Shown: positions 2,600 through 44,553 of the stretch, in pieces
Position numbering within the stretch: position 1 is the stretch's first letter
Layout of the letters: every line of letters starts with the position of its first letter
Source of the DNA: a virus
Lineage: Duplodnaviria > Heunggongvirae > Uroviricota > Caudoviricetes
Length of the DNA stretch: 46,219 nt
IMG/VR virus record: IMGVR_UViG_2706794662_000004
Strand: one strand, 5' to 3'
The notes under the pieces: model-generated
Seen by the model: only the letters and a program-made list of their open reading frames with translations
Database searches by the model: none
What the model was told of the DNA's origin: nothing
Translations under genes and position numbers: made by a program

Positions 2600-2760
2600 G
2601 CAGCCACCTCGCGCACCGGAATACGGGCAGACAATACCAGGACAAACCGGCTGGCGAACTGGCGACGAGCTTCCCGTTCAGATGACGCGATGGTGGAAAG
2701 ATGATGGATGTGTGACTTTTTGTCTGTGCGAACGACTGCCGCAAATTTGAATTTGAACAT
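2596..2760 (-). CDS. Icd-like small protein (54 aa), candidate cell-division inhibitor of a P1 immI-like / N15 immA-like locus
   Basis: Hand translation MFKFKFAAVVRTDKKSHIHHLSTIASSEREARRQFASRFVLVLSARIPVREVAA; resembles the Icd-like family as I recall it; GGAG RBS; not in the ORF track (<60 aa). Confidence 0.35.
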   Translation of the reverse strand: MFKFKFAAVVRTDKKSHIHHLSTIASSEREARRQFASRFVLVLSARIPVREVAA

Positions 2761-2921
2761 GGTATGCACTCCGTTTAATTGGTCGTGCTACCACCAGAGT
2801 TCCTACGCTCTATATGGCGGTAGCCCAGACGGGGGTAGGAATACCGGTAAACGAAGAAACCGGCCAGCTAAAAGCTGCCCCATCTGAGCCACCATAAATT
2901 TGGTGTACGCAGATTTTACAC

Positions 2922-3000
2922 ACAAAAAAACACGCAGGCGCGTGTTGTGCGCTTCATTTACTCGGGTTCCTACGCCCGGCTACGGGATTTACCGTAGCGG
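2922..3000 (-). ncRNA. Candidate c4/CI-like antisense immunity RNA (about 75-80 nt) with its own promoter and intrinsic terminator
   Basis: Minus strand has TTGACG -35 (about 3030-3035), a TAAAGT-like -10, then a 6-bp stem (acacgc/gcgtgt) with 4-nt loop followed by seven U (plus 2924-2946). The RNA contains gcgtaggaac, which recurs in the leader just upstream of the Icd-like RBS (plus 2799-2808). Confidence 0.3.
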
Positions 3001-3135
3001 AGTAACTTTACCGTCAAAACGACGCGCACGTCAATAATTTGCAAAGGCATTTTACCCCGTGACCAGTCACGGGGACAGGTGTTTTTATAGTTTGCTTAAA
3101 CGAGTGTTCAGAAGTTGATCGTTAATCAAAGGCCA

Positions 3136-3423
3136 TTACTGATTAAGAGATTGGAAATACCTAACTAACTTACCGGCATCATCACATTTTTCTTTATCTT
3201 CTTCCTTAACATAGCCGCGACAAAAGGCTGAATAAAATTTTGCATTTTCAGAAGCAAAAGCAGCCGTCGAAAGGAGCAGTTCTTTGCATGATTCTTTTGA
3301 TGCAGCATCGGGATTATTTTTACATGCAAGCTCTGCTGATGAGTCAATAACAGAAATGCTATCTTCCTGGGCATAAACCGCAGCAGAAAAGGCAAAACAT
3401 AAAACAAAAATAAAACTCTTCAC
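3136..3423 (-). CDS. Small secreted protein with four Cys (95 aa), unknown function
   Basis: N-terminal signal peptide MKSFIFVLCFAFSAAVYA-QE; AT-rich coding sequence. Confidence 0.55.
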   Translation of the reverse strand: MKSFIFVLCFAFSAAVYAQEDSISVIDSSAELACKNNPDAASKESCKELLLSTAAFASENAKFYSAFCRGYVKEEDKEKCDDAGKLVRYFQSLNQ

Positions 3424-4179: not shown

Positions 4180-4371
4180 TTACTCCCCGTTCACCGAAAA
4201 ATCACGATAGAAACGTTTCCACATACGATAAGTCTGCGCGAGTTGTTCACCACGAAACATCGCCTTCCTGGCCTTCATGTTTTCCTTGTGAGACTTTCGA
4301 TCTATGAACCAAAACCATTGCTGGAACACACAAAGCAAGAGACACAAAGATAATATCCACTGATTACCCAT
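4180..4371 (-). CDS. Small membrane protein (63 aa) translationally coupled to repA
   Basis: Internal Met (MGNQWILSLCLLLCVFQQWFWF...) whose ATG at 4371-4369 overlaps the repA stop codon; the longer 102-aa reading overlaps repA by 125 nt. Confidence 0.35.
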   Translation of the reverse strand: MGNQWILSLCLLLCVFQQWFWFIDRKSHKENMKARKAMFRGEQLAQTYRMWKRFYRDFSVNGE

Positions 4372-7300
4372 AGAAAGCGCCCTGCTCTTCGTAGCTGCAT
4401 GAGCTATTCCCGGTAATGTATTCTCGTAACCGCCGCAGTTCATTGCTGGACAAGTGATCCATGAACTCTGTGAGGTACAGAGATGCAAACGTCATAGCTA
4501 TGCTGGTTGATGACCATGATGACATAGTGGCCAGCTCCTCACCGGAAAGCGCACTCATCGCCCAGGACTCAGGAACAGCCACCGGCAATACGGCCAAAGC
4601 CTCAGAAATTACTGAATGAGGGGCGTTTTGAACCTGCTCGTTTGTGGATCGCGTTTTATCATCCATATATATATTGAGATCCAAATCGCGATCCATTTCG
4701 ATGGCTGTCTTCTCGGCTTTACGCGTTTTTAGGGTTAGGCCATCTTTCTGACGCTGAACAAGAATATCCAGCATAAATGCCGCTGATTCAGGCTCAACAA
4801 AACGCAAGGTTGGACGCTTATCGCCGTCTCTGCCGCGACGTTTACCTGTTTTAAGGCCAAGAGAGTCGCAAATGTTTTTAAACAACGCTTCCGGCACTTT
4901 AGGCTTCCCTTTTGGCGTCATAAAACCACCAATGTGCAGAACGTTATTCAACAGGTCACGGCGTTCGGCTGTCATGAGATTATCTCGAGCGAATTTGAGA
5001 CGCTCCTGAGTCGCCTCGCCGGTCATAGTCTCAGGGTTGATACCGCAGTCGATAAAGTACTGCCGGAGAGTTGCTGATTTAAGCGCATAGAAACCGCGCG
5101 CCCCGACTTCAACAGTAGGAGTAGCTTTTACCTTGTGATCGATTATTCCAGGGAATTTAGTTTTAAAGACATCATCAGCCTGCTCGCGAGTCATCGCGGT
5201 CACTACAAAATATTGCCACTGTCCCGCCTGACGGTATGCGTAGGTAAAATTGATGGCTGCTTCTTCCCGGTCGTAACGACGAGCTGTTACCTCATCTAAA
5301 AGCATTGTTTCATAGCGGCGAACTTTGTCTCGAGCACCATCGAAATAGAATTTCAGTGTGCCTTCTTCAACCGGTAGTTTCAGTTCGTTTTCAATATCCC
5401 AGCGGACAAGTTTTGCCTGTTCTTCAAGCGTCAGCGCGCGTTTTTTTAGCAGTTCTTCACGCTCTGATTCTTGTGGAGTTTCTGTATTGAGGTGCAGATC
5501 CAGTGTCTGTTCCCACACAATATCCCGCGCTTCTTTACGCAGATCTTTACCGATATCATTCGCAGCATAATCGGTGCCCAGCGGCGATACCTTATAACCG
5601 TCGCTGTGCATGATGCAGATCATGTTGCTGGCGTAGTCGTTACGCGCAGTCGCTTCAATTGCGGCTGCTTTAATTTTCATCCTGGTAAAGTCGGTATTGG
5701 CCACCCCCATTGATATACGGTCGCCATCGAAAATGACATCCGTCAGTTCACCGTTCATACCTGCGGTAGCAAGCAATGCCTGGGCGAATGCTCGTTCTAT
5801 TTTTTGCGGGTCAGTTTCACGTTTTGCACGAGCTTTATCAAAGCCGATAATAAATTCTTTTGCTGTACGGTCGCGGCGTAGCATTTGCACTGCGTCGCTG
5901 GGTACAACTTCACCACAGAACATGCCGAAATGACGGTCAAAATGTTTTTGCTCAATCGACACGCCGGATGAAATAGACGGGCTATAAATCAGGCCGTCGT
6001 ATTTTTTGACCATCTTTTTCGGTTGATTGGTAAATGCTTCAACTTCTGGCTCTGGTTTGTTTTTCTGGTTTACACACAGAAATTTCTTACCAGGAAAATG
6101 CATTCTCAGGGTGGCTGTCACATCTTCTGCAAAGGTGGAGCTGTCGGTGGCCAACATGATTTTTTCGCCATCCGATACAGCTTTCACCACCTCGGTCATG
6201 ATGCGATCTTTTTCTGTATAAAAAACCCGGATTGGCTCACCTGTTTCGCGGTTGCGAACATCAACAGGTAATTCAATTACGTGGATCTGCAGCCATGCCG
6301 GTAAACCTAGTTCTTCACGGCGTTTCATAGCCAGTTCAGCCAGGTCAACCAGCAGATCGTTCGCATCAGCATCCACCATGATTGGGTGTTGTTCCGTTCT
6401 GGCCAGCGCGTCAATTAGCGTATTGAATACAGCCACCGGGTTTTCCATAGCCCGACCGGAAAGAACGGCACGTAGCCCTTGTGTGGCCTCGTCAAAGCCA
6501 AAATAGTCGTGCTGGCGCATCAACGGTTGCCAGCAGTTTTTAACAATCGAGTTTATGCAGATGGTCAGTTTACTGGCGTATGGAGCCATTTCCTGATAGC
6601 CAGGGTCCTGATAGTGCAGGATATCGGCTTTTACACCTTTTCCTTCAGTCATCATTTCCCACAGGCCACCAATAAGGGAAACACGGTGAGCTACAGAGAT
6701 ACCGCGTTCTGAGCTATGCATTAACGGTCGTAACAATCCAGTAGATTTGCCGGAACCCATACCAGCACGAACGATGACGATCCCCTGTAGTGATTGCACG
6801 TACTTCAGGACGTCATCGGTCATTACCGAAGTTTCAAAACGCTTATAGGTGATATGTTGAGGGCGTTTATTGGGATCAGTTATGCGTTCGCTGAAAGAGC
6901 GCGGAGCCTGGGCAATACGGCACTTTTTATTCAGGCGACGGGCAATGTGGTCTTTTACCGTAGCGCGATAGATATTTTCCAGCCCCATTTCACGCAGAAC
7001 GATGCAGAACATGTTAAACAAATCTGACGGACTGTTAGGAACCGGACAGGTTAGCATGCCAATATCCACCGCTCTCAGCAGCTCTTTGGCAAAAGTACGA
7101 CGGTTATCCCGCTTAATTGTCTTCAGGCGGTTGAGCGTCAGAGATAGCAAATCAGTGCCGGTTTTCAGGCGGTTTGCTGTTGCAAATAGTTGACGTGCTG
7201 TTTCACGAAGTCCACGTAGTTTGTGCAGGTCGTTGAAGTCACTGCACTCCATTTGCGGATCGTCTTCAAAAGTTGGATAGACGCAGCGGACATCGTTGAA

Positions 7301-8359
7301 TTTCGATAAGATTTCATAGCCAGTCCGCAGGCCGGTATTCCCTTTTCCTTCTGTGGCTGATTTCCGGTCATTATCCAGTGCGCAGGTGATTTTTGCCGCC
7401 GGGTACATGTTTACCAGTTGTTCCACAACATGAACCATGTTGTTAGCGGATACAGCGACAACCACAGCGTCAAAGCGTTTATCTTTTTTCGTGGCAAGCC
7501 AGATGGATGCACCAGTAGCAAAACCTTCTGTAACAGCGATGTTTTGCGCCCCTTTCAGCTCACCGATAACAAAGCAGGCACCGACGAAATCGCCGCTGGT
7601 TACTGCGCTGGTCTGGTATTTCCCACCTTGTTTGTCGATTCGCTGCCAACCCACAATACGACCATCGTAACGACCGTCCAGGTGAGCCAGAGGGATAGCC
7701 ATATATGTGGTTGGCCCCCGGTTCCATTTCGCACTGTCGTGACTGGTCACGCGACGCACATCACATGAACTAAAAACGTCACGAATACCTTTTTTAATCG
7801 CATATGGCCATGAGCCGTCTTCTGCAGGAGCATGTTCCCACGCGCTGTGGAATGCCAGCCATCCCAGCAAACGTTCATGGTCCATTTGGTTGTTTTTCAG
7901 GTCATTAATTCGTTTTTGTTCTTCACGGCGACGACGTGCTTCGGCCTGACGTTTTATTCTTGCCCGTTCTTCTTCCGGTTGTGCGACCACGGTCGCATTA
8001 TTCCGTTGTTGCTCACGGCGATATTCAGAAAACAGGAAGGAGAAACCGCTCCATGAGCCAGCATCGCTGCCTTTATGGACGAAGTTAATGAACGGGTAAT
8101 CAATCCCTTTGCTGTGTTCCAGCCGAGAGTAAATTTCTACGCGTCCTTTGAGGCTCTTTTCGAGAGCTTCTGGAGATGTTTTATTGTATGAAGAGTAACG
8201 CTCAACACCCCCGCGAGGGTTGAGTTGGATGTTGTCGGAACAGGCAGACCAGTTGATACCAGCCATCTGTGCCAGCTCGGTTAGTTCATCCCGTGCTGCT
8301 TCAATTAGCGAGAACGGATCGCTGCCAAAGCGATCCGCATAGAAATCGTTTAATGTCAT
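4364..8359 (-). CDS. repA: Multifunctional replication protein RepA (primase-helicase, 1331 aa)
   Basis: Size close to N15 RepA (about 1324 aa as I recall); Walker A GMGSGKST in the central helicase part; position upstream of the cB immunity region as in N15. Confidence 0.85.
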   Translation of the reverse strand: MTLNDFYADRFGSDPFSLIEAARDELTELAQMAGINWSACSDNIQLNPRGGVERYSSYNKTSPEALEKSLKGRVEIYSRLEHSKGIDYPFINFVHKGSDAGSWSGFSFLFSEYRREQQRNNATVVAQPEEERARIKRQAEARRRREEQKRINDLKNNQMDHERLLGWLAFHSAWEHAPAEDGSWPYAIKKGIRDVFSSCDVRRVTSHDSAKWNRGPTTYMAIPLAHLDGRYDGRIVGWQRIDKQGGKYQTSAVTSGDFVGACFVIGELKGAQNIAVTEGFATGASIWLATKKDKRFDAVVVAVSANNMVHVVEQLVNMYPAAKITCALDNDRKSATEGKGNTGLRTGYEILSKFNDVRCVYPTFEDDPQMECSDFNDLHKLRGLRETARQLFATANRLKTGTDLLSLTLNRLKTIKRDNRRTFAKELLRAVDIGMLTCPVPNSPSDLFNMFCIVLREMGLENIYRATVKDHIARRLNKKCRIAQAPRSFSERITDPNKRPQHITYKRFETSVMTDDVLKYVQSLQGIVIVRAGMGSGKSTGLLRPLMHSSERGISVAHRVSLIGGLWEMMTEGKGVKADILHYQDPGYQEMAPYASKLTICINSIVKNCWQPLMRQHDYFGFDEATQGLRAVLSGRAMENPVAVFNTLIDALARTEQHPIMVDADANDLLVDLAELAMKRREELGLPAWLQIHVIELPVDVRNRETGEPIRVFYTEKDRIMTEVVKAVSDGEKIMLATDSSTFAEDVTATLRMHFPGKKFLCVNQKNKPEPEVEAFTNQPKKMVKKYDGLIYSPSISSGVSIEQKHFDRHFGMFCGEVVPSDAVQMLRRDRTAKEFIIGFDKARAKRETDPQKIERAFAQALLATAGMNGELTDVIFDGDRISMGVANTDFTRMKIKAAAIEATARNDYASNMICIMHSDGYKVSPLGTDYAANDIGKDLRKEARDIVWEQTLDLHLNTETPQESEREELLKKRALTLEEQAKLVRWDIENELKLPVEEGTLKFYFDGARDKVRRYETMLLDEVTARRYDREEAAINFTYAYRQAGQWQYFVVTAMTREQADDVFKTKFPGIIDHKVKATPTVEVGARGFYALKSATLRQYFIDCGINPETMTGEATQERLKFARDNLMTAERRDLLNNVLHIGGFMTPKGKPKVPEALFKNICDSLGLKTGKRRGRDGDKRPTLRFVEPESAAFMLDILVQRQKDGLTLKTRKAEKTAIEMDRDLDLNIYMDDKTRSTNEQVQNAPHSVISEALAVLPVAVPESWAMSALSGEELATMSSWSSTSIAMTFASLYLTEFMDHLSSNELRRLREYITGNSSCSYEEQGAFYG
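7982..7997. promoter_or_regulatory. 16-bp perfect palindrome TGCGACCACGGTCGCA, candidate SopB centromere site (copy 1, inside repA)
   Basis: Exact palindrome, one of five copies; resembles the F sopC core TGGGACCACGGTCCCA. Confidence 0.5.
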
Positions 8360-9292: not shown

Positions 9293-9514
9293 ATGAAACC
9301 AGAAGAACTTATTCGCCACTTTGGCAGTGTAGAAAAAGCAGCGGCAGGGGTAGGTGTAACACCCGGAGCTGTTTACCAATGGTTAACCGCTGGAGAGATT
9401 CCTTCATTGCGGCAAAGCGATATTGAAGTTCGTACTGCTTATAAGCTGAAGAGTGACTTTACAACTCGGCGGGTAAAGCAGTCGATTAAGGAGAGTCGTA
9501 AGCGTGGAGCTTGA
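9293..9514 (+). CDS. cro: Cro-like HTH regulator
   Basis: Small ORF divergent from cB with HTH GVTPGAVYQWL; start taken at ATG 9293 (MKPEELIRHF), the track start at 9266 being a TTG. Confidence 0.6.
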   Translation: MKPEELIRHFGSVEKAAAGVGVTPGAVYQWLTAGEIPSLRQSDIEVRTAYKLKSDFTTRRVKQSIKESRKRGA

Positions 9515-10214
9515 GTATATACGCAGCTGCGTCTCTACGGCATTGGCTGATGTTCATTATCGCCAGCGTGGCATTCTGGAGGTCCAGCTTGAGCAGATGC
9601 GTCTCGGTAGATCAGGACGGTTTAACAATAAACCAGTCCGGTCAATCAGTGTGGGGGATGATAACTCATACGAAGTGTCCGTTCCTGCTGAGCCGGTTAG
9701 ATTCCACCAGGGGAAAACATTTAAACAATCATCAATGTTGCTCACTGATATTGATTTTCAGAGCGCCAGCTGGCGCAGGGCTATTGGTCAGTTGAATAAC
9801 GAGGAATCAGCCTGGCTTTATTATTGCTACGGATGCAAGCCTGATTACAACAATGATGTGATTGTTTGTCAGTGGTTATGGCTTGATTTTCTGGTTGCTC
9901 ATTCGGGGGGCGGCTTTAAAAAAATGAAGGCCTCCACGAAAAAAGCCATGCGGAAATTGATTTATTACGCGGCACAGCAGGTTAAATCAGAACTTACGTG
10001 TGCTGAGGCAGTTGATGAGAGAGAACAGGACAGGCATCTGAGTCTTCTACTGAATATATCTATTGATAGCTGGAGACAAGATTATAAAGAACGCTGGCTT
10101 TTAATTAAGTCGCGATGTCTGAGCTTAAATCGAACTGCATTATTAAATGCGGCGGAGAAGCGCAGTGAAATCATCAAACGCCATCGGGCAGGAAGTGCCA
10201 TTCTGCCTTTGTAA
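9504..10214 (+). CDS. Putative late-gene regulator (Q antiterminator position), 236 aa
   Basis: Positional inference only: third gene of the cB-cro-Q arrangement reported for N15 immB; no motif confirmed by eye. Confidence 0.3.
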   Translation: MELEYIRSCVSTALADVHYRQRGILEVQLEQMRLGRSGRFNNKPVRSISVGDDNSYEVSVPAEPVRFHQGKTFKQSSMLLTDIDFQSASWRRAIGQLNNEESAWLYYCYGCKPDYNNDVIVCQWLWLDFLVAHSGGGFKKMKASTKKAMRKLIYYAAQQVKSELTCAEAVDEREQDRHLSLLLNISIDSWRQDYKERWLLIKSRCLSLNRTALLNAAEKRSEIIKRHRAGSAILPL

Positions 10215-10221
10215 ACAAGTT

Positions 10222-10467
10222 ATGTTCAGGAAACCGTCGAAGCCAGAATTAAGGTATTCGGGGGTAAGAAATGAATATGTTATCTGGTGTCCAACTTGTG
10301 GTTACAGGACACGACCAGATAGTAATAAGCAGTCTGTAATTGCCGATTGGTATTTATCAAATCAGCCAGGTAATAAGCATATAGAAAATCTTTGGATTAA
10401 GCGTTACTTGGAAATCAGAGAGGGTGCGACCGTGGTCGCACAAGAAAATGAAAATAACGCCATTTAA
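10222..10467 (+). CDS. Small Cys-containing protein (CPTCGY), unknown function
   Basis: ORF starting at internal ATG 10222 immediately after the previous stop; contains palindrome copy 2 in its 3' end. Confidence 0.35.
   Translation: MFRKPSKPELRYSGVRNEYVIWCPTCGYRTRPDSNKQSVIADWYLSNQPGNKHIENLWIKRYLEIREGATVVAQENENNAI
10425..10440. promoter_or_regulatory. 16-bp palindrome TGCGACCGTGGTCGCA (copy 2)
   Basis: Exact palindrome, same family as 7982, 14806, 17816, 18036. Confidence 0.5.
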
Positions 10468-14805: not shown

Positions 14806-14821
14806 TGCGACCACGGTCGCA
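14806..14821. promoter_or_regulatory. 16-bp palindrome TGCGACCACGGTCGCA (copy 3)
   Basis: Exact palindrome in the intergenic region upstream of the methyltransferase gene. Confidence 0.5.
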
Positions 14822-14907
14822 CAGCACAAAAACGAAAAAGCTTGGCAAAATGACGGTTTTTAGTTATTGTTTTGTTAAGTTGGGTTTTTTGTACCCAACA
14901 GCCAACA

Positions 14908-14931
14908 AGCCGCCTTTATGGCGGTTTTTTT
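14908..14931 (+). terminator. Intrinsic terminator (preceded by a second hairpin at about 14879-14899)
   Basis: ccgcc-tttat-ggcgg hairpin followed by seven T. Confidence 0.5.
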
Positions 14932-15066
14932 GTGCCTGAAAAGTGGGCGCAGGACAAGTTGCAGCTTGTCCTGCGGTCAACCCATGCCAGAGCTATAGGC
15001 TGAACCTAAAGCCCACCCGCGATGCGCATCGCCGGGTTAGCTTACCCAGGCAAAAAAATAATAGCT

Positions 15067-16143
15067 ATGTTCAAAACCACTAATATTCATGGCGCACAAC
15101 TCGTTTGCGCAGATTCTCTGCAATTTATCAAAACCATCCCTGATAACTCGGTCAATTTGATTGCAACAGACCCACCATACTTCGGCGTAAAGGCTAACGC
15201 ATGGGATAACCAGTGGGATAGCGATGCTGACTTTTTGGGGTGGATTGACGAATTTTTGGCAGAATTTTGGCGGATATTGGCCCCTAATGGCAGCCTGTAT
15301 ATGTTTACCGGCTCTCGCCTTGCGTCAAAAATTGAATTATTAACTCGCGACCGTTTCAATGTTCTGAACCATATTATTTGGGCTAAACCCAGTGGTATGT
15401 GGCGCGGTTGTCATAAAGAAAGTTTAAGGGCTTATTTTCCTGCTACTGAAAGAATATTATTTGCAGAGCATTACGGCGCGTCAGGTTATGCTAAAGGTCA
15501 GTCAGGTTATGCTTCAAAATGTGCAGATTTAAGAAAAAATATTTTTTCTCCACTAATTGATGCTTTTTCGCTGGCTCGCCGTCAGTTAGATATATCAGCC
15601 GCAGACATTAATTCAGCGACAGGAAAGCAGATGTGTTCACACTGGTTTTCTTATTCGCAGTGGCGGCTTCCATCATTAATTGATTTTAATAAACTATGCG
15701 AATTATTTCGCAGGAAGGCAGATTCACTCGGTGTCCCGTGTCCATATCCTTTTAATGTTGATTATTCAGAACATGAAAAGCGTTATAGCGATCTGAAATT
15801 GCATTATGAGGAAGTAAAGAAGCAGTATGATGATTTGAAGGCTCAGTATGAAAATTTACGCCGTCCATTTCATGTTACTGCTGATGTACCTTATACCGAT
15901 GTATGGGAGTTTCCTCCTGTGCAATATTATCCTGGCAAGCACCCATGTGAAAAACCTGCAGCGATGATGGAACATATTATAAAGAGTAGTTCACGCCCCG
16001 GAGATATCGTTGCCGATTTCTTTATGGGATCAGGCTCAACTATTAAAGCTGCGCTGAAGTTAGGACGTCAGGCAATAGGTATTGAGATTGAGGGCGAACG
16101 TTATCTTCAGACAGTTGATGAAGTGAAAAAGTTATTTGAGTAA
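15067..16143 (+). CDS. DNA N6-adenine/N4-cytosine methyltransferase (DPPY family)
   Basis: Motif IV IATDPPYF near the N-terminus and motif I FFMGSGST near the C-terminus (beta-class order); start taken at ATG 15067 (MFKTTN...). Confidence 0.75.
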   Translation: MFKTTNIHGAQLVCADSLQFIKTIPDNSVNLIATDPPYFGVKANAWDNQWDSDADFLGWIDEFLAEFWRILAPNGSLYMFTGSRLASKIELLTRDRFNVLNHIIWAKPSGMWRGCHKESLRAYFPATERILFAEHYGASGYAKGQSGYASKCADLRKNIFSPLIDAFSLARRQLDISAADINSATGKQMCSHWFSYSQWRLPSLIDFNKLCELFRRKADSLGVPCPYPFNVDYSEHEKRYSDLKLHYEEVKKQYDDLKAQYENLRRPFHVTADVPYTDVWEFPPVQYYPGKHPCEKPAAMMEHIIKSSSRPGDIVADFFMGSGSTIKAALKLGRQAIGIEIEGERYLQTVDEVKKLFE

Positions 16144-16511: not shown

Positions 16512-17008
16512 TGCAGTCATCATTACGCAAAGCTGTCACAGCTGCTATTGGTGGCGGGGCTATTGCCATAGCGTCTATGCTCATCACTGGCCCAAGTGGT
16601 AACGATGGTCTGGAAGGTGTCAGTTACATACCATACAAAGATATTGTTGGCGTATGGACTGTATGTTACGGACACACTGGAAAAGACATCATGCTAGGTA
16701 AAACGTATACCGAAGCAGAATGCAAAGCTCTCCTGAATAAAGACCTTGCCACTGTCGCCAGACAAATTAACCCGTACATCAAAGTCGATATACCGGAAAC
16801 AACGCGCGGCGCTCTTTACTCGTTCGTTTACAACGTGGGCGCTGGTAATTTCAGAACATCGACGCTTCTTCGCAAAATAAACCAGGGCGATATCAAAGGC
16901 GCATGTGATCAGCTACGTCGCTGGATATCTGCTGGCGGTAAGCAATGGAAAGGCCTGATGACTCGTCGTGAGATTGAGCGTGAAGTCTGTTTGTGGGGTC
17001 AACAATGA
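16508..17008 (+). CDS. SAR endolysin (T4-type lysozyme with N-terminal signal-anchor-release domain)
   Basis: Gly/Ala-rich N-terminal TM ([20 protein letters not shown]) followed by lysozyme catalytic region EG...D...[10 protein letters not shown]. Confidence 0.8.
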
Positions 17009-17442
17009 GCAGGGTAACCGCGATTATCTCCGCTCTGGTTATTTGCATCATCGTCTGCCTGTCGTGGGCTGTTAATCATTACCGTGATAACGCCATCGCC
17101 TACAAAGAGCAGCGCGATAAAGCCACATCCACAATCGCTGATATGCAGAAGCGTCAACGTGACGTAGCAGAACTCGATGCCAGATATACAAAGGAGCTTG
17201 CTGATGCTAACGCGACTATCGAAAGCCTCCGTGCTGATGTTTCTGCTGGGCGTAAGCGCCTGCAAGTCGCCGCCACCTGTGCAAAGTCAACGACCGGAGC
17301 CAGCGGCATGGGCAATGGAGAAAGCCCAAGACTTACAGCAGATGCTGAACTCAATTATTACCGTCTCCGAAGTGGGATCGACAGGATAACTGCGCAGGTT
17401 AACTACTTGCAGGAATACATCAAGACGCAATGCCTGAATTAA
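17005..17442 (+). CDS. Rz: i-spanin Rz
   Basis: N-terminal TM then coiled-coil; sequence very close to lambda Rz as I recall it; start overlaps the endolysin stop (ATGA). Confidence 0.75.
17204..17389 (+). CDS. Rz1: o-spanin Rz1 (lipoprotein) embedded in the +1 frame of Rz
   Basis: Signal peptide with lipobox (FLLGVSAC) followed by a Pro-rich mature region, entirely inside Rz. Confidence 0.6.
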
Positions 17443-17483: not shown

Positions 17484-17795
17484 ATGAAAATTTATATTGC
17501 CGGGCCAATGACGGGATATGAGAACTTTAATCGTGACGCCTTTAATAAAGAGGCAGATCGTTTGTCACGACATGGTCACTCTGTCTTGAATCCAGCCACT
17601 TTGCCTAATGGTCTGACACAACGTGAATACATGGATATTTGCTTTGCAATGCTTCGTTGTGCTGATGCTATTTTGATGCTTCCTGGCTGGAAAGCGTCTG
17701 CTGGAGCAACTGCTGAGTATCATTACGCATACAAGATGGAGATGCCGGTATTCACTACGCTGAATTACCCGCCAGCTTGTTCCTCTGTAGCATAA
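17484..17795 (+). CDS. Nucleoside 2-deoxyribosyltransferase-like / DUF4406-like protein
   Basis: 103-aa ORF starting MKIYIAGPMTG, which resembles that family as I recall it. Confidence 0.45.
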   Translation: MKIYIAGPMTGYENFNRDAFNKEADRLSRHGHSVLNPATLPNGLTQREYMDICFAMLRCADAILMLPGWKASAGATAEYHYAYKMEMPVFTTLNYPPACSSVA

Positions 17796-17815
17796 AAATC
17801 TCTTTGTTTCTCGTT

Positions 17816-17831
17816 TGCGACCGTGGTCGCA
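17816..17831. promoter_or_regulatory. 16-bp palindrome TGCGACCGTGGTCGCA (copy 4), immediately left of repeat element copy A
   Basis: Exact palindrome. Confidence 0.5.
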
Positions 17832-17842
17832 CATTAAATACC

Positions 17843-18015
17843 GCGCTGCATCGTCGCCGTATTTCCGCATTAACCATGACCGTAGCCCGACGGGGAACTC
17901 CTCTGCGCGAGTGTGCGGAAATAATCAAAAACGATGCACACCGGGTTTTTACCGCGCTAATGATTCGCGGGTTTGTCCCTCATGCTCGCCAGTCCTGTGC
18001 GAGGGTGGAAGAAAC
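17843..18015. repeat. Noncoding repeat element, copy A (about 173 bp, about 90 percent identical to copy B)
   Basis: Aligns base-for-base with 19628-19801; contains conserved stems (ccgtagcccgacgg; accgcg-loop-cgcggg with variable loop; ccctcatgctcgc...gcgaggg). Confidence 0.6.
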
Positions 18016-18035
18016 AGGGCATGTATTCAGGAGCG

Positions 18036-18051
18036 TGCGACCGTGGTCGCA
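18036..18051. promoter_or_regulatory. 16-bp palindrome TGCGACCGTGGTCGCA (copy 5), immediately right of repeat element copy A
   Basis: Exact palindrome, 25 bp upstream of the RBS of the 286-aa cargo gene. Confidence 0.5.
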
Positions 18052-18075
18052 CGGTATCTTTGTCAGGAGGTTTTG

Positions 18076-18936
18076 ATGAAAGAGTTGCAAAAAATTAATT
18101 CAATAATGGAAAGGTTAAGTGCTCTTGAGCGTAAGCTGGACGATTGTGGAAAGCTGTGTGTTGAAAAGCAAAATGAGCTTTACCGGGAATTTTTTACAAT
18201 CGTAAGTGAGCTGATGCCAATTGTTAATAACTGCCTGATGACATCCAGATTTTTTAATGTCGATGCTACTACATCCAGAAAATTTTCTGTGAAAATTCAA
18301 GAAAGAGTTTCTGGTAGTGTGACAAGAGAGATGGCTGAACAGTTGGTGGCAATGAGCAATAAAACAAAAAGAAAAAAGGCATTGCTTGTAACAGCAAATC
18401 AGCTTTCAGGGCGCGTTGACTTTCAGGTCAGACAGGGTGGGCGTGTACTGGTAAATGATGCGTTCGTTGGACGTAGCTTTAGTCCTTACTCGATGAAATA
18501 TGATGTTGATGCAGATGATCAGGATATCAGCATTTCCTGGAAATCTGAGACAGCAGGGATTGTATTAACAGCAGAGTTGTTGAATGATGATAAAAATGAT
18601 GTCCAGCATCATTTGGACGAAAAGAATCATATTTCTGAAATTTGTATGAAGCCACGCAGCGGAATGACTTTATTGTCACGCACTCTTGCTGCTGGCTTTT
18701 CTGCACCGGAAAAACGTGTGCTTCTGGTAGTGCCTGAAGATGCAGATATTCGACCACTGAATGGCTGTGATGTTATTAGTGCAAAAACATTGCATACCCG
18801 CGTCATTCCTGTACCGGATGTGGTCATTATTGATGATGTTGAGAAATGCAAGTCTGTTTCCTCAACTGCCACAATCAAGCGAATTTTACGTTGTAGCACG
18901 TCGGCTGTTGTATTCCGGAAGCAGTTACATAACTAA
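18076..18936 (+). CDS. Hypothetical protein (286 aa), first gene of the AT-rich cargo cassette
   Basis: GGAGG RBS 6 nt before ATG 18076; the track ORF from 17815 is an upstream extension across the noncoding repeat; no recognisable motif. Confidence 0.6.
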   Translation: MKELQKINSIMERLSALERKLDDCGKLCVEKQNELYREFFTIVSELMPIVNNCLMTSRFFNVDATTSRKFSVKIQERVSGSVTREMAEQLVAMSNKTKRKKALLVTANQLSGRVDFQVRQGGRVLVNDAFVGRSFSPYSMKYDVDADDQDISISWKSETAGIVLTAELLNDDKNDVQHHLDEKNHISEICMKPRSGMTLLSRTLAAGFSAPEKRVLLVVPEDADIRPLNGCDVISAKTLHTRVIPVPDVVIIDDVEKCKSVSSTATIKRILRCSTSAVVFRKQLHN

Positions 18937-19061
18937 CCAGTTTTGTTTTGCAGAACATCCTCAACTAAAAGCTTATAGAAAGAGAGCCTGAGATATTTTT
19001 TCTGTCTCTCGTAGTTGTTTGTTTTTTTTTCGAACAGACTTACAACTTACAGGATATAAAC

Positions 19062-19511
19062 ATGCAAGAAGAAGCAAATAAAATTCTTGTTGATTTATTG
19101 AAGAAGGCCAGCGATGGAATTGATTCCGCCATTGTATTCAGTCAGGCTCAAATTCCGGATGTTGTTCATCAGTTGCTGGTATGGAATATGGTTGATAGCC
19201 TGATTAAAACATTAATAACCATTTCAACAATTCCGCTGGTTATTTGGTTTATGAAGAAACAGTGCAAAAAAGTTGAAATTGGTAAGTTCGATAATGAAGG
19301 ACGCTCATGCGATAATGGACAGCCTAAATACAAACCAACTATGCTTTGGGAAAGTGACGGTAGGTTAAGTGGTTTTGTCTTACCATTAGTAGCAGTTTTT
19401 ATTCTATGGTTCAGTTTTATTATTTCTGTAGTAGCCAATATGACATGGTTAAAAATTTGGCTGGCACCTAAGTTATATCTAATCGAATACGCAGCATCAC
19501 TAATTAAATAG
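19062..19511 (+). CDS. Membrane protein with two predicted TM helices (149 aa), second gene of the cargo cassette
   Basis: Hydrophobic segments LITISTIPLVIWFM and GFVLPLVAVFILWFSFIISVVA; AT-rich. Confidence 0.6.
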   Translation: MQEEANKILVDLLKKASDGIDSAIVFSQAQIPDVVHQLLVWNMVDSLIKTLITISTIPLVIWFMKKQCKKVEIGKFDNEGRSCDNGQPKYKPTMLWESDGRLSGFVLPLVAVFILWFSFIISVVANMTWLKIWLAPKLYLIEYAASLIK

Positions 19512-19627
19512 TCCATTACAAAAGCCATTCGCTACTGAGTGGCTTTGATAATGGCTTATACCCTACACGGGATAACTTAACTGATATCCCTTTTAACGGA
19601 TAAAGGTATTCAAGCCTGACACATCAT

Positions 19628-19801
19628 GCGCTGTATCGTCGTCGTATTCCCGTCTTAACAGAGACCGTAGCCCGACGGGGAACTCTTTCTGCGCGAGTGT
19701 GCGGGAATAATCAAAAACGATGCACACCGGGTTTTTACCGCGTTTATGGTTCGCGGGTTTGCCCCTCATGCTCGCCAGTCCTGTGCGAGGGTGGAAGAAA
19801 C
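19628..19801. repeat. Noncoding repeat element, copy B, immediately upstream of cos
   Basis: Aligns with 17843-18015; the 68-aa track ORF at 19697-19903 lies inside it but conservation is at nucleotide level. Confidence 0.6.
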
Positions 19802-19869
19802 CGGATATTAATGCAAGTGATAAACATTCTCATTTTCTCGGGTCCTTTCCGGCGATCTGACAGGCTACG

Positions 19870-19881
19870 GGGCGGAAGGCG
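19870..19881. other. cosN, predicted 12-nt cohesive end GGGCGGAAGGCG; cosB-like repeats follow to about 20050
   Basis: Flanks caggctacg and cgcgggttttcgctatttatgaaaattttccggtttaaggcg match my recollection of the lambda cos region; the central 12-mer differs from lambda GGGCGGCGACCT. Confidence 0.55.
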
Positions 19882-20058
19882 CGCGGGTTTTCGCTATTTA
19901 TGAAAATTTTCCGGTTTAAGGCGTTTCCGTTCTTCTTCTCCGTAACTTCATGTTTTTATTTAAAACACCCACTGAAAAGAAAGGAAACGACAGATGCTGA
20001 AAACGGGCTTTTTGGCCTTTGTCGTTTCCTTTCTCTGTTTTTGTCCGTGGAATGAACA

Positions 20059-20578
20059 ATGGAAGTCAACAAAAAGCAGCTGGCTGATATTTTCGGTGCG
20101 AGTATCCGTACCATTCAGAACTGGCAGGAGCAGGGAATGCCCGTTTTGCGAGGCGGTGGCAAGGGTAATGAGGTGCTTTATGATTCTGCCGCCGTCATAA
20201 AATGGTATGCCGAAAGGGATGCTGAAATTGAGAACGAAAAGCTGCGCCGGGAGGTTGAAGAACTGCGGCTGGCCAGCGAGGCAGATCTTCACCCCGGAAC
20301 ACTTGAATTTGAGCGCCATCGCCTGACTCGTGCTCAGGCGACGGCGCAGGAACTGAAAAATGCCAAAGAATCGGCTGAAGTGGTGGAAACCGCATTCTGT
20401 ACTTTCGTGCTGTCGCGTATAGCAAGGGAAATATCCAGTATTCTCGACGGTATTCCTCTGTCGGTGCAGCGACGTTTTCCTGAGCTGGATAACCGGCATA
20501 TTGATTTCCTGAAACGGGATATCATCAAAGCCATGAACAAAGCAGCCGCGCTGGATGAACTGATACCGGGGTTGCTGA

Positions 20579-20604
<26 letters not shown>
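20059..20604 (+). CDS. nu1: Terminase small subunit (lambda Nu1-like)
   Basis: N-terminus MEVNKKQLADIFGASIRTIQNWQEQGMPVLRGGGKGNEVLYD matches recalled lambda Nu1. Confidence 0.9.
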
Positions 20605-42500: not shown

Positions 42501-42980
42501 TCGCATACCCACAGCGCCAGCGCATCCAGTACAGATTTGGGGACGAAAACCACATCGTCGTTTGATTACGGCACTAAATCCACGAATAACACTGGTGCGC
42601 ATACCCATAGTTTAAGTGGCAGCACGAATGCAGCTGGTAATCACAGCCATAGAGATGGCCGTCGATTTAACCCCAGTGTTTTTAAAGATACTTATCAATA
42701 TGGTTATACAAGCTCAGGTCAAAATACCTGGGGTGTACAAGGCTCAGTAGGTATGTCTACGGGGTGGTTAGCGAATACCAGTACAGATGGTAATCATAGC
42801 CATTCACTGTCCGGCACAGCAGCATCTGCAGGTGCACACGCGCATACTGTCGGTATTGGTGCTCATACGCACTCCGTTGCGATTGGTTCACATGGACACA
42901 CCATCACCGTTAACGCTGCTGGTAACGCGGAAAACACCGTCAAAAACATCGCATTTAACTATATTGTGAGGCTTGCATAA
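39582..42980 (+). CDS. stf: Side tail fibre protein Stf (1132 aa)
   Basis: N-terminus [38 protein letters not shown] and His-rich C-terminus (HSHSLSGT ... [15 protein letters not shown] ... [11 protein letters not shown]) match recalled lambda Stf. Confidence 0.85.
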
Positions 42981-43555
42981 TGGCATTCAGAATGAGTGAA
43001 CAACCACGGACCATAAAAATTTATAATCTGCTGGCCGGAACTAATGAATTTATTGGTGAAGGTAACGCATATATTCCGCCTCATACAGGTCTGCCAGCAA
43101 ACAGTACCGATATTGCACCACCAGATATTCCTGCTGGCTTTGTGGCTGTTTTCAACAGTGATGAGGCATCGTGGCATCTCGTTGAAGATCATCGGGGTAA
43201 AACGGTTTATGACGTGGCTTCCGGCGACGCGTTATTTATTTCTGAACTCGGTCCGTTACCGAAAAATGTTACCTGGTTATCGCCGGAAGGGGAGTTTCAG
43301 AAGTGGAACGGCACAGCCTGGGTGAAGGATACGGAAGCAGAAAAACTGTTCCGGATCCGGGAGGCGGAAGAAACAAAAAACAACCTGATGCAGGTAGCCA
43401 GTGAGCATATTGCGCCGCTTCAGGATGCTGTAGATCTGGAAATCGCAACAGAGGAAGAAACCTCGTTGCTGGAAGCTTGGAAAAAGTATCGGGTGTTGCT
43501 GAACCGTGTTGATACATCACTATCTCCAGATATCGAGTGGCCAAGTCAACCATAA
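42980..43555 (+). CDS. tfa: Tail fibre assembly protein Tfa
   Basis: [28 protein letters not shown] matches recalled lambda Tfa. Confidence 0.85.
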
Positions 43556-43587: not shown

Positions 43588-44553
43588 TTAATTATCAGTA
43601 GATTGTTCCTCTAGTAACAACTCAATTCTGCTTAGTATTTCTTTAGATATTTTGCGGCTATCAATTTTTATAGTTACAAAATTACCTTTATATCTAGCCG
43701 TGATCCCTTCCCCATATTTTTTCTCGTCTTTTGTTTTTTCCTCGTCGCCAACCAGAACAGAGTCAGATAATATTTGTATAATCCGTGAAGCTTCTAAATC
43801 CTCGCCGTTTTTTTTAATTACTAGAAGATGATGAGCAGCATTGCTCATGGCAGCCATGTTTTTTTTGTAAACCTTAAACAAAGAATCTCCAGCACGAGCT
43901 GACAGTTCTCCTGGATGATTGAAGATAGCTAATATATCTTTTGGTAGACCAGCTGTATTAATACAGCGAGTGATAATATTTCTATCTATATTTTCAGCCT
44001 CGGCTAATGCTTTAACGTTACCATCAAAGTCATTTAGCTTGCGTAAGTATCTCTTTCCTCTTTCGTATGCACTAATAGGTCTATAATCGTTACCAATTTG
44101 GGATAACCAATGCATCTGTTCATCGTCGAGATCACCAATTAAGACGCGATAGTCACATCCTGTTAATATCGCTGCTTTTCTTCTACGTGAGCCGTCAGCG
44201 ACTTCAACGATTCCAGATACTTTTCTGGCGAAAGCTGGATTTTGTTGTCCAGACGTTAGAAAAGATGGGATTAAATCGGCTAGAGAGGATTCATTTAATA
44301 AATCTTGATCGCGTTCATTACCTAGCCATACCATTGTTGCCATTTCAACTTTATCTGCGGGAATTGTCTCTAACTTAAAGTTAACATTACGTCCGCATAC
44401 TGGCAAAGTTATGCTGTTACCGGTTAATGAACTCAGTTGACGTTTTAAATCACCAACCATAGGTGATACGGGCTGATGTTCAGGGGCATGATGATTATTA
44501 CTCATAATGCGATTAATATCTGGAGCATTTTTTAGAAGAGAGCGCTGTTTCAT
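43588..44553 (-). CDS. sopB: Partition protein SopB (ParB family)
   Basis: 321-aa ORF immediately downstream of and overlapping sopA; ParB-like features. Confidence 0.75.
   Translation of the reverse strand: MKQRSLLKNAPDINRIMSNNHHAPEHQPVSPMVGDLKRQLSSLTGNSITLPVCGRNVNFKLETIPADKVEMATMVWLGNERDQDLLNESSLADLIPSFLTSGQQNPAFARKVSGIVEVADGSRRRKAAILTGCDYRVLIGDLDDEQMHWLSQIGNDYRPISAYERGKRYLRKLNDFDGNVKALAEAENIDRNIITRCINTAGLPKDILAIFNHPGELSARAGDSLFKVYKKNMAAMSNAAHHLLVIKKNGEDLEASRIIQILSDSVLVGDEEKTKDEKKYGEGITARYKGNFVTIKIDSRKISKEILSRIELLLEEQSTDN

What the first reader, a model, noticed from the sequence alone, without database searches (positions are those of the whole stretch)
17843..19801. AT-rich two-gene cassette bracketed by two copies of a 174-bp noncoding element, between the lysis genes and cos
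Two unknown genes (286-aa soluble protein at 18076-18936 and a 149-aa two-helix membrane protein at 19062-19511) are visibly more AT-rich than the flanking lysis and terminase genes. They sit exactly between two roughly 90 percent identical copies of a noncoding element, in the lysis-to-cos interval where lambdoid phages commonly carry morons. A cytoplasmic protein paired with a small membrane protein is a common layout for superinfection-exclusion or abortive-infection systems, and I recognise neither protein. This is my best candidate for an undescribed accessory or defence system.
Basis: partly seen in the sequence, partly recalled or inferred. Interest (0 to 1): 0.8.

Follow-up and report, generated by a model that had tools for sequence, protein, structure and literature searches.

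The report
Two stacked accessory genes near cos
An N15-like phage-plasmid carries two unrelated accessory genes of unknown function in the usual cargo slot between its lysis genes and cos; the 174-bp repeat around them is a recombination footprint, not a mobile element or clear evidence of a two-gene defence system.

Summary
Copy A (17843-18016) and copy B (19628-19802) share 159 of 175 aligned positions. They bracket a 286-aa gene and a 149-aa two-helix membrane gene with 38% GC, against 50% for the window.

The window is an N15-like linear phage-plasmid, and the slot lies in its Q-dependent late operon.

The 174-bp element is not special to this cassette. It is a non-coding stretch found, usually once, between lysis genes and cos in lambdoid prophages of 4894 of 5426 complete E. 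coli genomes.

The two genes are not an obligate pair:
- The 286-aa gene, an Escherichia-only orphan, occurs alone to the right of the element.
- The 149-aa gene occurs alone to the left of the element. It also occurs in early-left operons next to ral/sieB, and in virulent phages.

Stacking the two genes therefore duplicates the landmark between them. Each copy has a closer relative elsewhere (99% and 97%) than it has in the other copy.

Copy A is flanked by two exact N15-type SopB centromere sites, giving five sites where N15 has four.

No family, defence catalogue or fold search assigns a function to either protein. This is ordinary lambdoid mosaicism carrying two uncharacterised genes. A defence role is untested.

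The parts
17484..17795 (+). DUF4406 (nucleoside 2-deoxyribosyltransferase-like) gene. It is the conserved left backbone neighbour of the slot and the homologue of N15 gene 57.
   Evidence: Pfam PF14359 E=3.7e-34; N15 gene 57 annotation.
17816..17831 (.). SopB centromere-type inverted repeat TGCGACCGTGGTCGCA, the backbone copy (position of N15 IR4).
   Evidence: Five exact copies in the window against 0.35 expected. It matches the N15 IR1-IR4 sequences in PMC7205306 Table 4. N15 site positions mapped. Present in empty-slot relatives L017 and L024.
17843..18016 (+). Copy A of the 174-bp conserved lambdoid non-coding element.
   Evidence: It is 99.4% identical to the single copy in empty-slot N15-like phages L017 and L024.
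18036..18051 (.). Second SopB-type inverted repeat. It travels with the 286-aa gene and also forms an 8-bp hairpin followed by a T-rich tract.
   Evidence: The order element-IR-ORF286 is seen in L035, L039 and L042. Terminator-like hit; fold.
18076..18936 (+). ORF286, an Escherichia-restricted orphan protein. Predicted N-terminal helical hairpin (1-58), beta domain (99-169) and small alpha/beta C-terminal domain.
   Evidence: PHROG 2571, unknown function.
18937..19061 (+). AT-rich (34% GC) spacer that contains the mosaic joint between the two genes. Only its last 40 bp accompany ORF149 when ORF149 occurs alone.
   Evidence: L054 retains spacer positions 86-125 only. The ORF149 allele varies from 86.7 to 99.8% identity next to ORF286 at over 99%.
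19062..19511 (+). ORF149, a two-transmembrane-helix 'phage transmembrane protein' with a near-invariant C-terminus WLKIWLAPKLYLIEYAA.
   Evidence: PHROG 3054, unknown function.
19512..19627 (+). Left 116 bp of the ~290-bp conserved lambdoid unit. It contains a long hairpin at about 19513-19557.
   Evidence: It precedes the element in phages that lack ORF149: L014, L029, L003, L018, L049, L046 and L060. Fold z = -5.1 on the + strand and -3.4 on the - strand. The equivalent stretch is annotated as a terminator in phage Ayreon.
19628..19802 (+). Copy B of the 174-bp element.
   Evidence: Together with the 116 bp to its left it is 97.2% identical to L014 and 96.5% to Ayreon.
19840..19881 (+). cosQ-like GGGTCCT (19840-19846) and the inferred 12-nt cohesive end GGGCGGAAGGCG (19870-19881).
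   Evidence: Read from the sequence and aligned by eye to my recollection of the lambda cos sequence. The nick positions are inferred, not shown.
20059..20604 (+). Nu1 small terminase, the right backbone neighbour.
   Evidence: Pfam PF07471 E=1.3e-95.

Best explanation
The region is a mosaic accessory slot at the end of the lysis part of the Q-dependent late operon of an N15-like linear phage-plasmid. It holds two independently mobile single-gene insertions, stacked head to tail.

In lambdoid Escherichia phages a conserved non-coding landmark lies between the lysis genes and cos. The 286-aa gene normally sits just to the right of this landmark, behind a SopB-type inverted repeat. The 149-aa membrane gene normally sits just to its left. 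A phage that carries both genes therefore carries the landmark twice, which gives the order element-IR-286-149-(116 bp)-element.

The window itself is what homologous recombination within the element would produce. The recipient would be an empty N15-like backbone (DUF4406-IR-element-cos). The donor would be a lambdoid prophage that already carried the stack. This accounts for two features: the two SopB sites around copy A, one from each parent, and the 9% divergence between the copies.

Shown here: the anatomy, the presence/absence states, and the independence of the two genes. Inferred: the order of events, and the use of phage Red/Rad52-type recombination, which is stimulated by cutting at cos (established for lambda and DLP12).

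Function is inferred, with low confidence. Both genes are read with the late operon and have no promoter-like site of their own, so they are probably made late in lytic growth. ORF149 is an inner-membrane protein of a family shared by temperate and virulent phages. It most likely acts at the membrane of the infected cell, for example by excluding superinfecting phage or countering a host membrane-associated function. ORF286 has no assignable activity.
For: Host element: protelomerase, SopA/SopB, Q and a lambda-type Nu1 are all present. The nearest phage relative is classified in Ravinvirus.

Ubiquity of the element: it matches in 4894 of 5426 E. coli genomes, and is present once in most phages. 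An exact 22-nt core pattern occurs only in Escherichia, apart from short contigs that look like contamination.

States of the slot:
- Empty: L017 and L024.
- ORF286 alone after element-IR: L035 and L036.
- ORF149 alone before the unit: L054.
- Both genes between two full units in a chromosomal prophage: L039.
- Both genes without copy A: L040.
- Internal deletions: L002 and L006.
- An ORF286 remnant: L042.

Every locus with two copies carries ORF286. Copy A is 99.4% identical to the copy in L017, and the unit containing copy B is 97.2% identical to L014, while A and B are 91% identical to each other.

Many different breakpoints fall inside the unit, at unit positions 1-2, 73, 88, 116-117, 195, 223 and 249.

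Allele swapping: ORF286 at 99.7% sits next to ORF149 at 86.7%.

Recombination in the R...cos...Nu1 interval, and its stimulation by cos, are documented in PMC3945230. 'Boundary sequences' at lambdoid module joints are annotated next to the Sf6 homologue of ORF149 and discussed in PMC3233612.

No sigma-70-like site lies upstream of either gene.
Against: The order of recombination events cannot be recovered from present-day sequences. The last 40 nt of copies A and B are identical, so the crossover points are not visible.

L040, which lacks copy A, could be either ancestral or derived.

The promoter scan covers only the sigma-70 consensus, so expression from the prophage is not excluded.

The pair does co-travel on at least four different backbones (window, L038, L039, L040). 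That would also be expected of a functional pair.

Nothing tested here bears directly on what either protein does.
Confidence: 0.7

Rival explanations
1. The 286-aa cytoplasmic protein and the 149-aa membrane protein form one undescribed two-component superinfection-exclusion or abortive-infection system. It would be expressed from the plasmid prophage and would protect the lysogen.
For: The two genes are adjacent and co-oriented on at least four backbones. They are AT-rich accessory cargo in a slot where a real defence gene, phi80 tai, resides. ORF149 homologues lie next to sieB in P22-like prophages. Neither protein has any housekeeping homology.
Against: Each gene occurs alone. ORF149 is six times more frequent than ORF286 in E. 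coli, and its family is also in virulent Vibrio, N4-like, jumbo and 146-kb coliphages. The spacer between the genes is a mosaic joint. PADLOC gave no hit. There is no promoter-like site upstream, and both genes point with the late operon, whereas phi80 tai is divergent and expressed in the lysogen. Truncated ORF286 variants persist in several lineages.
Confidence: 0.12
2. One gene alone, most plausibly ORF149, is a stand-alone superinfection-exclusion or counter-defence membrane protein. ORF286 would be an unrelated passenger. This is compatible with the stacking model and differs from it only in asserting a defined single-gene function.
For: The family is wide, with 490 clusters, and has strongly conserved N- and C-terminal segments. 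It is under purifying selection, with dN/dS about 0.2. It recurs at accessory positions next to ral, sieB and N and in the lysis-terminase gap.
Against: No experimental report was found. It has no similarity to any described family, only PHROG families of unknown function and a weak 'membrane protein' hit. The structure model is of low to moderate confidence, and fold search found nothing.
Confidence: 0.25
3. The 174-bp element is itself functional: a structured RNA within the late transcript, an sRNA gene, or a promoter/terminator insulator. It would be present twice because each inserted gene needs its own copy.
For: The element is in about 90% of E. coli genomes. In lambda and HK630 its first 40 nt carry the annotated leftward promoter upstream of bor. 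Two 3' hairpins keep pairing through changes on both sides in one allele lineage. The adjacent 116 bp hold a very stable hairpin.
Against: There is no Rfam match at gathering or permissive thresholds. Folding is no better than for shuffled sequence, with z from -0.6 to -1.3. The lambda promoter hexamers are degraded in both window copies, TACAAT having become TACGAC and TACGGC, and no promoter-like site is found. Phages keep arbitrary fragments of the element (positions 1-69, 1-106 or 1-137), which argues against a unit under selection as a whole. Its identity to copies in other phages (83-100%) is similar to that of the neighbouring Nu1 gene.
Confidence: 0.12
4. The repeats are the ends of a mobile cassette (MITE-like, integron-like or transposon-borne) inserted by site-specific or transpositional recombination. 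Alternatively, they are a recent tandem duplication made in place.
For: Direct repeats bracket foreign-looking DNA.
Against: The copies differ at 16 of 175 positions, and each has a closer relative elsewhere. There are no terminal inverted repeats and no target-site duplication, and no recombinase or transposase lies nearby. The element exists as a single copy at the same genomic position in hundreds of phages that lack the cargo.
Confidence: 0.03

Closest known systems
Lambdoid 'morons' in the lysis-to-cos interval (lambda bor; DLP12 borD, ybcV, ybcW, ylcI)
   Same: The position is the same, between Rz and cos/Nu1. Both show presence/absence polymorphism between otherwise colinear phages and have atypical base composition. 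The same conserved non-coding stretch lies beside them: element positions 1-106 lie between bor and ybcV in lambda and DLP12.
   Different: bor, ybcV and ylcI are read leftward, and in HK630 a leftward promoter is annotated upstream of bor. The two genes here are read rightward with the late operon and show no promoter-like site. Their proteins are unrelated to any of these.
phi80 TaiEcA/AtiEcA, a tail-assembly-inhibition defence gene and its counter-defence gene (PMC11364771)
   Same: [quoted passage not shown]
   Different: BLASTP shows no similarity between either window protein and the phi80 proteins in that slot. tai is divergently oriented and constitutively expressed in the lysogen, whereas both genes here are co-oriented with the late operon.
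Conserved 'boundary sequences' at lambdoid module joints, and relaxed homologous recombination by Red/Rad52-type recombinases (PMC3945230, PMC3233612; Sf6 'bsq' annotations)
   Same: A short conserved non-coding stretch lies at a module joint and is shared by otherwise divergent phages. Mosaic breakpoints fall inside and at the edges of it.
   Different: Here the sequence is present twice in one genome because two insertions lie on opposite sides of it. At 174-290 bp it is longer than the 113-bp Sf6 bsq4 feature.
N15 dispersed centromere sites IR1-IR4 bound by SopB (PMC7205306; Ravin, Rech and Lane 2008, cited from a reference list, and not read)
   Same: The 16-bp core is identical. Sites 1-3 have homologous flanks and positions: inside repA, after Q, and before the late promoter.
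   Different: The window has five sites, not four. The IR4-position site is doubled, 220 bp apart, around copy A of the element.
Sf6 gene 34 and the PL-operon homologues of ORF149 in lambda-like and P22-like prophages
   Same: They belong to the same protein family, at 42-78% identity, with the same two-helix layout.
   Different: Those copies are early-left operon genes next to ral, N or sieB. Here the gene has been moved to the late operon. None of them has a known function.

Membership tests
Lambdoid moron (extra gene inserted between conserved genes) | Present in some and absent from other, otherwise colinear genomes | tested here: met
   The empty slot in L017 and L024 against the window; L054 against L038 for ORF286; L035 against the window for ORF149.
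Lambdoid moron (extra gene inserted between conserved genes) | Base composition differs from that of the flanking genes | tested here: met
   38.4% GC against 48.8% and 53.6% for the flanks. This falls in the lowest 1.2% of windows of equal size.
Lambdoid moron (extra gene inserted between conserved genes) | Has its own promoter that allows expression from the repressed prophage | tested here: not met
   No sigma-70-like site (9 of 12 or better) lies upstream of either start codon. The only nearby hit overlaps the ORF149 ATG. The scan covers the consensus only, so a weak or non-canonical promoter is not excluded.
Lambdoid moron (extra gene inserted between conserved genes) | Has its own terminator | tested here: inconclusive
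   A stable hairpin follows ORF149 (z = -5.1) and is annotated as a terminator in Ayreon, but it has no U-run on the + strand. A weaker hairpin plus T-run follows ORF286.
Catalogued anti-phage defence systems (PADLOC-DB v2) | Profile match of at least one component | tested here: not met
   No families matched at E <= 1 for ORF286, ORF149 or DUF4406.
Two-component exclusion or abortive-infection system (sensor or effector plus membrane partner) | Components co-inherited as a unit | tested here: not met
   Each gene occurs alone. They are in 35 and 217 E. coli genomes respectively. There is a mosaic joint in the spacer between them.
Two-component exclusion or abortive-infection system (sensor or effector plus membrane partner) | Protects the carrying cell or population from phage infection | not testable with these tools
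   This needs plaque and liquid-infection assays.
Tai/Ati (phi80 orf63/orf64) | Sequence similarity to TaiEcA or AtiEcA | tested here: not met
   The best BLASTP E-value was 3.0 or worse against the phi80 proteins of that slot. I assigned the phi80 ORFs to tai and ati by position and orientation.
N15-type SopB centromere site | The 16-bp inverted repeat TGCGACC-NN-GGTCGCA, dispersed in a replicon that encodes SopA and SopB | tested here: met
   Five exact sites. The sequence matches the published IR1-IR4. A SopB HTH domain protein and a ParA-type ATPase are encoded at 43588-45719.
N15-type SopB centromere site | Bound by SopB and active in partition | not testable with these tools
   This needs ChIP or plasmid-stability assays.
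Structured RNA family (Rfam) or sRNA gene, for the 174-bp element | Covariance-model match, or folding and covariation beyond chance | tested here: not met
   No Rfam hit. Fold z from -0.6 to -1.3. The covariation term is -1.56 of -51.8 kcal/mol, and the compensatory changes trace to one allele lineage.
Protein-coding gene, for the 174-bp element | A conserved open frame | tested here: not met
   The 1-nt indel between the copies shifts every frame. The minus-strand ORFs of 58 and 57 aa differ between the copies and have no Pfam match. RefSeq annotates nothing there.
Transposable or site-specific cassette | Terminal repeats with target duplication and an associated recombinase | tested here: not met
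   The repeats are direct, diverged and ubiquitous as single copies. No recombinase gene lies nearby.

The most novel reading that the evidence does not exclude
ORF149 represents a large, completely uncharacterised family of small phage inner-membrane proteins. The family has 490 clusters and occurs in P22-like, lambda-like and N15-like temperate phages and in virulent Vibrio, N4-like, jumbo and 146-kb coliphages. Its members would carry out one conserved membrane-level function during infection, such as superinfection exclusion or neutralising a membrane-associated host defence. ORF286 could be a new Escherichia-specific accessory or defence protein. The doubled SopB site around copy A could additionally couple partition-protein binding to expression of this cargo.
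Probability: 0.2. Interest if true: 0.55.

Novelty: new member of a known kind. Interest (0 to 1): 0.3.

Why it matters
This locus gives a clean, fully reconstructed example of how direct repeats can arise in a phage genome without any mobile-element machinery. Two independent insertions on opposite sides of one conserved landmark, brought together by homologous recombination, duplicate that landmark. The example is a caution against reading 'cargo between repeats' as a cassette or a system.

It also shows gene flow between chromosomal lambdoid prophages and N15-like phage-plasmids at the cos-proximal recombination hotspot.

It flags two testable unknowns. One is a very widespread small phage membrane protein family with no known function. 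The other is an extra SopB centromere site inside the late operon.

If either gene proved to be an exclusion or counter-defence factor, it would add a member to the growing list of immunity genes upstream of the packaging module.

Tried and rejected
Searches that found nothing:
- No tRNA or tmRNA in the window.
- Rfam at gathering and at permissive thresholds found nothing in the region.
- RNA folding of both copies on both strands was not better than shuffled sequence.
- Small ORFs in the element are not conserved between the copies, have no Pfam match, and are not YlcI/YnfO, which in relatives lies further right.
- For ORF286 and ORF149, Pfam, NCBIfam and PADLOC gave nothing, and PHROGs gave only families of unknown function.
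- PDB sequence searches gave nothing.

Structure work:
- The ORF149 model (pLDDT 65.6) had no match at E <= 0.001 in BFVD.
- The afdb50 library was unavailable.

Sequence comparisons:
- An exhaustive HMMER search of 1.8 billion representatives with ORF286 found one full-length cluster, fragments, and two weak partial relatives (35% and 46% identity) of the beta domain.
- N15 gp59 and the phi80 slot proteins, including the presumed Tai and Ati, show no similarity.

Ideas and leads dropped:
- The element as the bor promoter: the hexamers are degraded here.
- The repeat as a recent duplication or transposon ends: rejected on divergence and distribution.
- From the sequence alone I suspected a Toprim-like motif (PED...DD) in the ORF286 C-terminal domain. 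I could not test it and do not claim it.
- The two N15 partition papers (PMC2394991, PMC94163) are not held in the library and could not be read.
Full report
**1. What the window is**

The window encodes the following:
- a protelomerase (246-2159);
- a Q antiterminator (9504-10214);
- a DNA methylase (15022-16143);
- an Rz protein (16993-17442), preceded by the holin and endolysin ORFs;
- a DUF4406 protein (17484-17795);
- lambda-type Nu1 (20059-20604);
- a SopB HTH-domain protein and a ParA-type ATPase (43588-45719, minus strand).

A 1331-aa ORF (4364-8359, minus strand) lies where N15 has its replication gene. I did not run it against any family library.

The closest phage records are PhiR46_1 and YDC107_1. 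YDC107_1 is classified in Ravinvirus, the N15 genus. Many closest E. coli records are ~46-kb plasmids. The window is therefore an N15-like linear phage-plasmid in its prophage arrangement, with cos in the middle.

All genes from Q to the terminase are on the + strand. In N15 the late promoter lies upstream of the methylase gene. The finding therefore lies inside the late operon.

**2.

The direct repeat is real. Copy A is 17843-18016 and copy B is 19628-19802. They differ at 16 of 175 aligned positions, including one 1-nt indel.

Both have Shine-Dalgarno sequences. Both evolve under purifying selection, with dN/dS of 0.19-0.53 against homologues.

The cassette has 38.4% GC, against 50.0% for the window and 49-54% for its flanks. 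Only the protelomerase end is more AT-rich.

Lambda-like cos signals follow copy B: GGGTCCT at 19840, then an inferred cohesive end at 19870-19881.

**3. What the 174-bp element is**

It is not specific to this cassette.
- It matches in 4894 of 5426 complete E. coli genomes and in about 400 phage records. Most phage records hold it at a single place, between the lysis genes and cos or the terminase genes.
- An exact core pattern occurs only in Escherichia species, apart from short contigs that look like contamination.
- In other phages the conserved unit is longer, about 290 bp. It includes the 116 bp to the left of copy B (window 19512-19627). That stretch holds a very stable hairpin (z = -5.1) and is annotated as a terminator in phage Ayreon.

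Different phages keep different fragments of the unit (element positions 1-69, 1-106, 1-137 or the full length). Breakpoints recur at several positions. This is the signature of a recombination joint, not of a unit kept intact by selection.

In lambda, HK630 and DLP12, element positions 1-106 lie between bor and ybcV. They carry the annotated leftward promoter upstream of bor (TGGACA...TACAAT). In both window copies those hexamers are degraded, and no promoter-like site is found.

Other tests of function were negative or weak:
- There is no Rfam match.
- Folding is not better than for shuffled sequence.
- A few compensatory changes in two 3' hairpins trace to a single allele lineage.
- No ORF is conserved between the copies.

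I conclude that the element is conserved non-coding DNA at a module joint. This corresponds to the 'boundary sequences' described for lambdoid phages. A modest regulatory role is not excluded.

**4. The palindromes around copy A**

TGCGACCGTGGTCGCA occurs five times in the window, against 0.35 expected by chance. It is the core of the four dispersed N15 centromere sites IR1-IR4, which SopB binds (PMC7205306, Table 4).

N15's sites lie at 33481 (inside the replication gene), 35932 (after Q), 41126 (before the late promoter) and 45563 (between genes 58 and 59). The window's sites at 7983, 10426 and 14807 have homologous flanks or positions. The fourth position is occupied twice, at 17817 and 18037, 220 bp apart, with one site on each side of copy A.

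The right-hand site also forms an 8-bp hairpin followed by a T-rich tract, just before the ORF286 ribosome-binding site.

**5. The two genes are independent**

ORF286 is an orphan:
- It gives 15 clusters, all from Escherichia or Shigella.
- An exhaustive search of 1.8 billion representatives returned one full-length cluster, fragments, and two weak partial relatives (35% and 46% identity) of its beta domain.
- One of those partial relatives sits in the Q-to-lysis gap of another lambdoid prophage.
- It is in 35 of 5426 E. coli genomes, 21 chromosomal and 14 on plasmids.

ORF149 belongs to a family of 490 clusters across Enterobacteriaceae. It is in 217 E. coli genomes and 132 phage records, including virulent Vibrio, N4-like, jumbo and 146-kb coliphages.

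Its homologues occur in several contexts:
- next to sieB in P22-like Salmonella prophages;
- between ral and ea10/cIII in lambda-like prophages;
- as Sf6 gene 34;
- after a KilA-N gene in a Klebsiella prophage.

Three observations are decisive:
- L035 and L036 have the ORF286 homologue alone between Rz and cos.
- L054 has ORF149 alone in the lysis-terminase gap. It encodes the same protein as L038 and L039, and L038 differs from L054 by the presence of ORF286.
- ORF286 at over 99% identity sits next to ORF149 alleles ranging from 86.7 to 99.8%. Only the last 40 bp of the 125-bp spacer accompany ORF149 when it occurs alone.

**6. How the repeat arose**

Across loci, ORF286 lies to the right of [element-IR] (L035, L039, and a remnant in L042). 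ORF149 lies to the left of [116 bp-element] (L054). Every locus with two copies of the element carries ORF286.

Carrying both genes therefore means carrying the landmark twice. L039, a chromosomal lambdoid prophage, has exactly this order: unit-IR-286-149-unit.

Empty-slot N15-like phages (L017, L024) have DUF4406-IR-element-cos. Their element is 99.4% identical to copy A, and their cos region is 99.2% identical to the window's. Recombination within the element between such a backbone and an L039-like donor gives the window's order. One IR would then come from each parent.

Copy B's unit is closest to L014 (97.2%) and Ayreon (96.5%), not to copy A (91%). The copies are therefore diverged alleles, not a recent duplication.

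Homologous exchange in precisely this R...cos...Nu1 interval has been shown experimentally for lambda and DLP12. It is driven by Red/Rad52-type recombinases and stimulated by cutting at cos (PMC3945230). The order of events remains my inference.

Derived states also exist:
- L040 lacks copy A.
- YDC107_1-type phages have an internal deletion running from ORF286 nucleotide 586 to the end of ORF149.
- L007 and L019 have a truncated copy B.

Among PLSDB plasmids that match this backbone, 17 carry the full cassette, several carry the deletion, and a few are empty. N15 itself has a Dcm methylase and gp59 in the slot. These proteins are unrelated to ORF286 and ORF149.

**7. What the genes may do**

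Nothing assigns a function. Pfam, NCBIfam, PADLOC and PDB sequence searches are empty. PHROGs 2571 and 3054 are of unknown function.

The structure models are of low to moderate confidence, and fold searches give nothing specific.
- ORF286 (pLDDT 56.5): N-terminal helical hairpin, beta domain, small alpha/beta domain.
- ORF149 (pLDDT 65.6): N-terminal helix, transmembrane helix, beta-hairpin loop, transmembrane helix, C-terminal amphipathic helix with a near-invariant WLKIWLAPKLYLIEYAA motif.

Both genes point with the late operon and lack a promoter-like site. The documented defence gene of this slot, phi80 tai, behaves differently: it is divergently oriented and expressed in the lysogen, while its partner ati is a late-operon gene (PMC11364771). 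Neither window protein resembles the phi80 proteins.

The ORF149 family occurs in virulent phages and in early-left operons. On that basis I consider a membrane-level role during lytic infection, such as exclusion or counter-defence, the most likely one. My confidence in this is low. ORF286 remains unassigned.

**8. Verdict**

Its reading as accessory cargo in a moron hotspot is right. Its reading as a two-gene defence system bounded by cassette repeats is not supported.

The region is a new instance of a known kind: lambdoid mosaicism at a conserved joint, carrying two uncharacterised genes. Interest is modest. The open items are the function of the widespread ORF149 family and the doubled SopB site.

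Noticed in passing
window 7982-7997, 10425-10440, 14806-14821, 17816-17831, 18036-18051: There are five exact N15-type SopB centromere inverted repeats, one more than in N15. The extra one arises because the IR4-position site is doubled 220 bp apart around copy A. The same 16-mer also accompanies ORF286 in chromosomal lambdoid prophages (L039, L035, L014).
   Followed up: partly
window 2813-2998 (- strand): There are Rfam gathering-level matches to C4 antisense RNA (RF01695) and isrK (RF01394), next to each other. They lie just downstream of the protelomerase gene, where N15 has its antirepressor gene (gene 30) and, from memory, its small-RNA anti-immunity locus.
   Followed up: no
window 43323-43521 (+ strand): There is a full-length Rfam match to IS009 (RF02111, 224 bits). 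It lies inside the 191-aa ORF 42980-43555, at the end of the tail-fibre region.
   Followed up: no
window 19870-19881: The inferred 12-nt cohesive end is GGGCGGAAGGCG. It differs from lambda's GGGCGGCGACCT (recalled from memory) at 5 positions and from N15's GGGCGGCGTCCG at 4, while the flanking cosQ- and cosB-like sequences are close to lambda's.
   Followed up: partly
window 19978-20034: A 26-nt inverted repeat (85% complementary, 5-nt spacer) lies between cos and the Nu1 start. It probably contains terminase-binding (cosB R-site-like) sequences.
   Followed up: no
window 14830-14960: Immediately downstream of the third SopB site there is a strong GC-rich hairpin with a T-run (GCCGCCTTTATGGCGGTTTTTTT). 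It lies upstream of the methylase gene, at the position of N15's late promoter and Q-dependent terminator.
   Followed up: no
L002 (YDC107_1) 2637-3353; L006; E. coli records H201-H207: There are recurrent decay variants of the cargo. One is a deletion joining ORF286 nucleotide 585 to the 116-bp stretch after ORF149 (4 complete genomes). Another is a 353-bp ORF286 stub (3 genomes). L042 has a 56-nt ORF286 remnant after element-IR.
   Followed up: partly
L056 4001-4546: P0143 is one of only two distant relatives of the ORF286 beta domain (35% identity over residues 101-209). It is a 181-aa protein in the Q-to-holin gap of another lambdoid prophage, about 2.9 kb downstream of an Rce1-like (PF02517) gene.
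   Followed up: partly
window 17815-18936: A 373-aa open frame from a TTG at 17815 runs through copy A and the right-hand SopB site, in frame with ORF286. It is an artefact of an open frame across non-coding DNA. The real start is the ATG at 18076, behind AGGAGG.
   Followed up: yes
whole window: A Shigella sonnei member of the ORF149 cluster (P0200) is recorded on a contig of exactly 46219 bases, the length of this window. This hints at where the window comes from.
   Followed up: no
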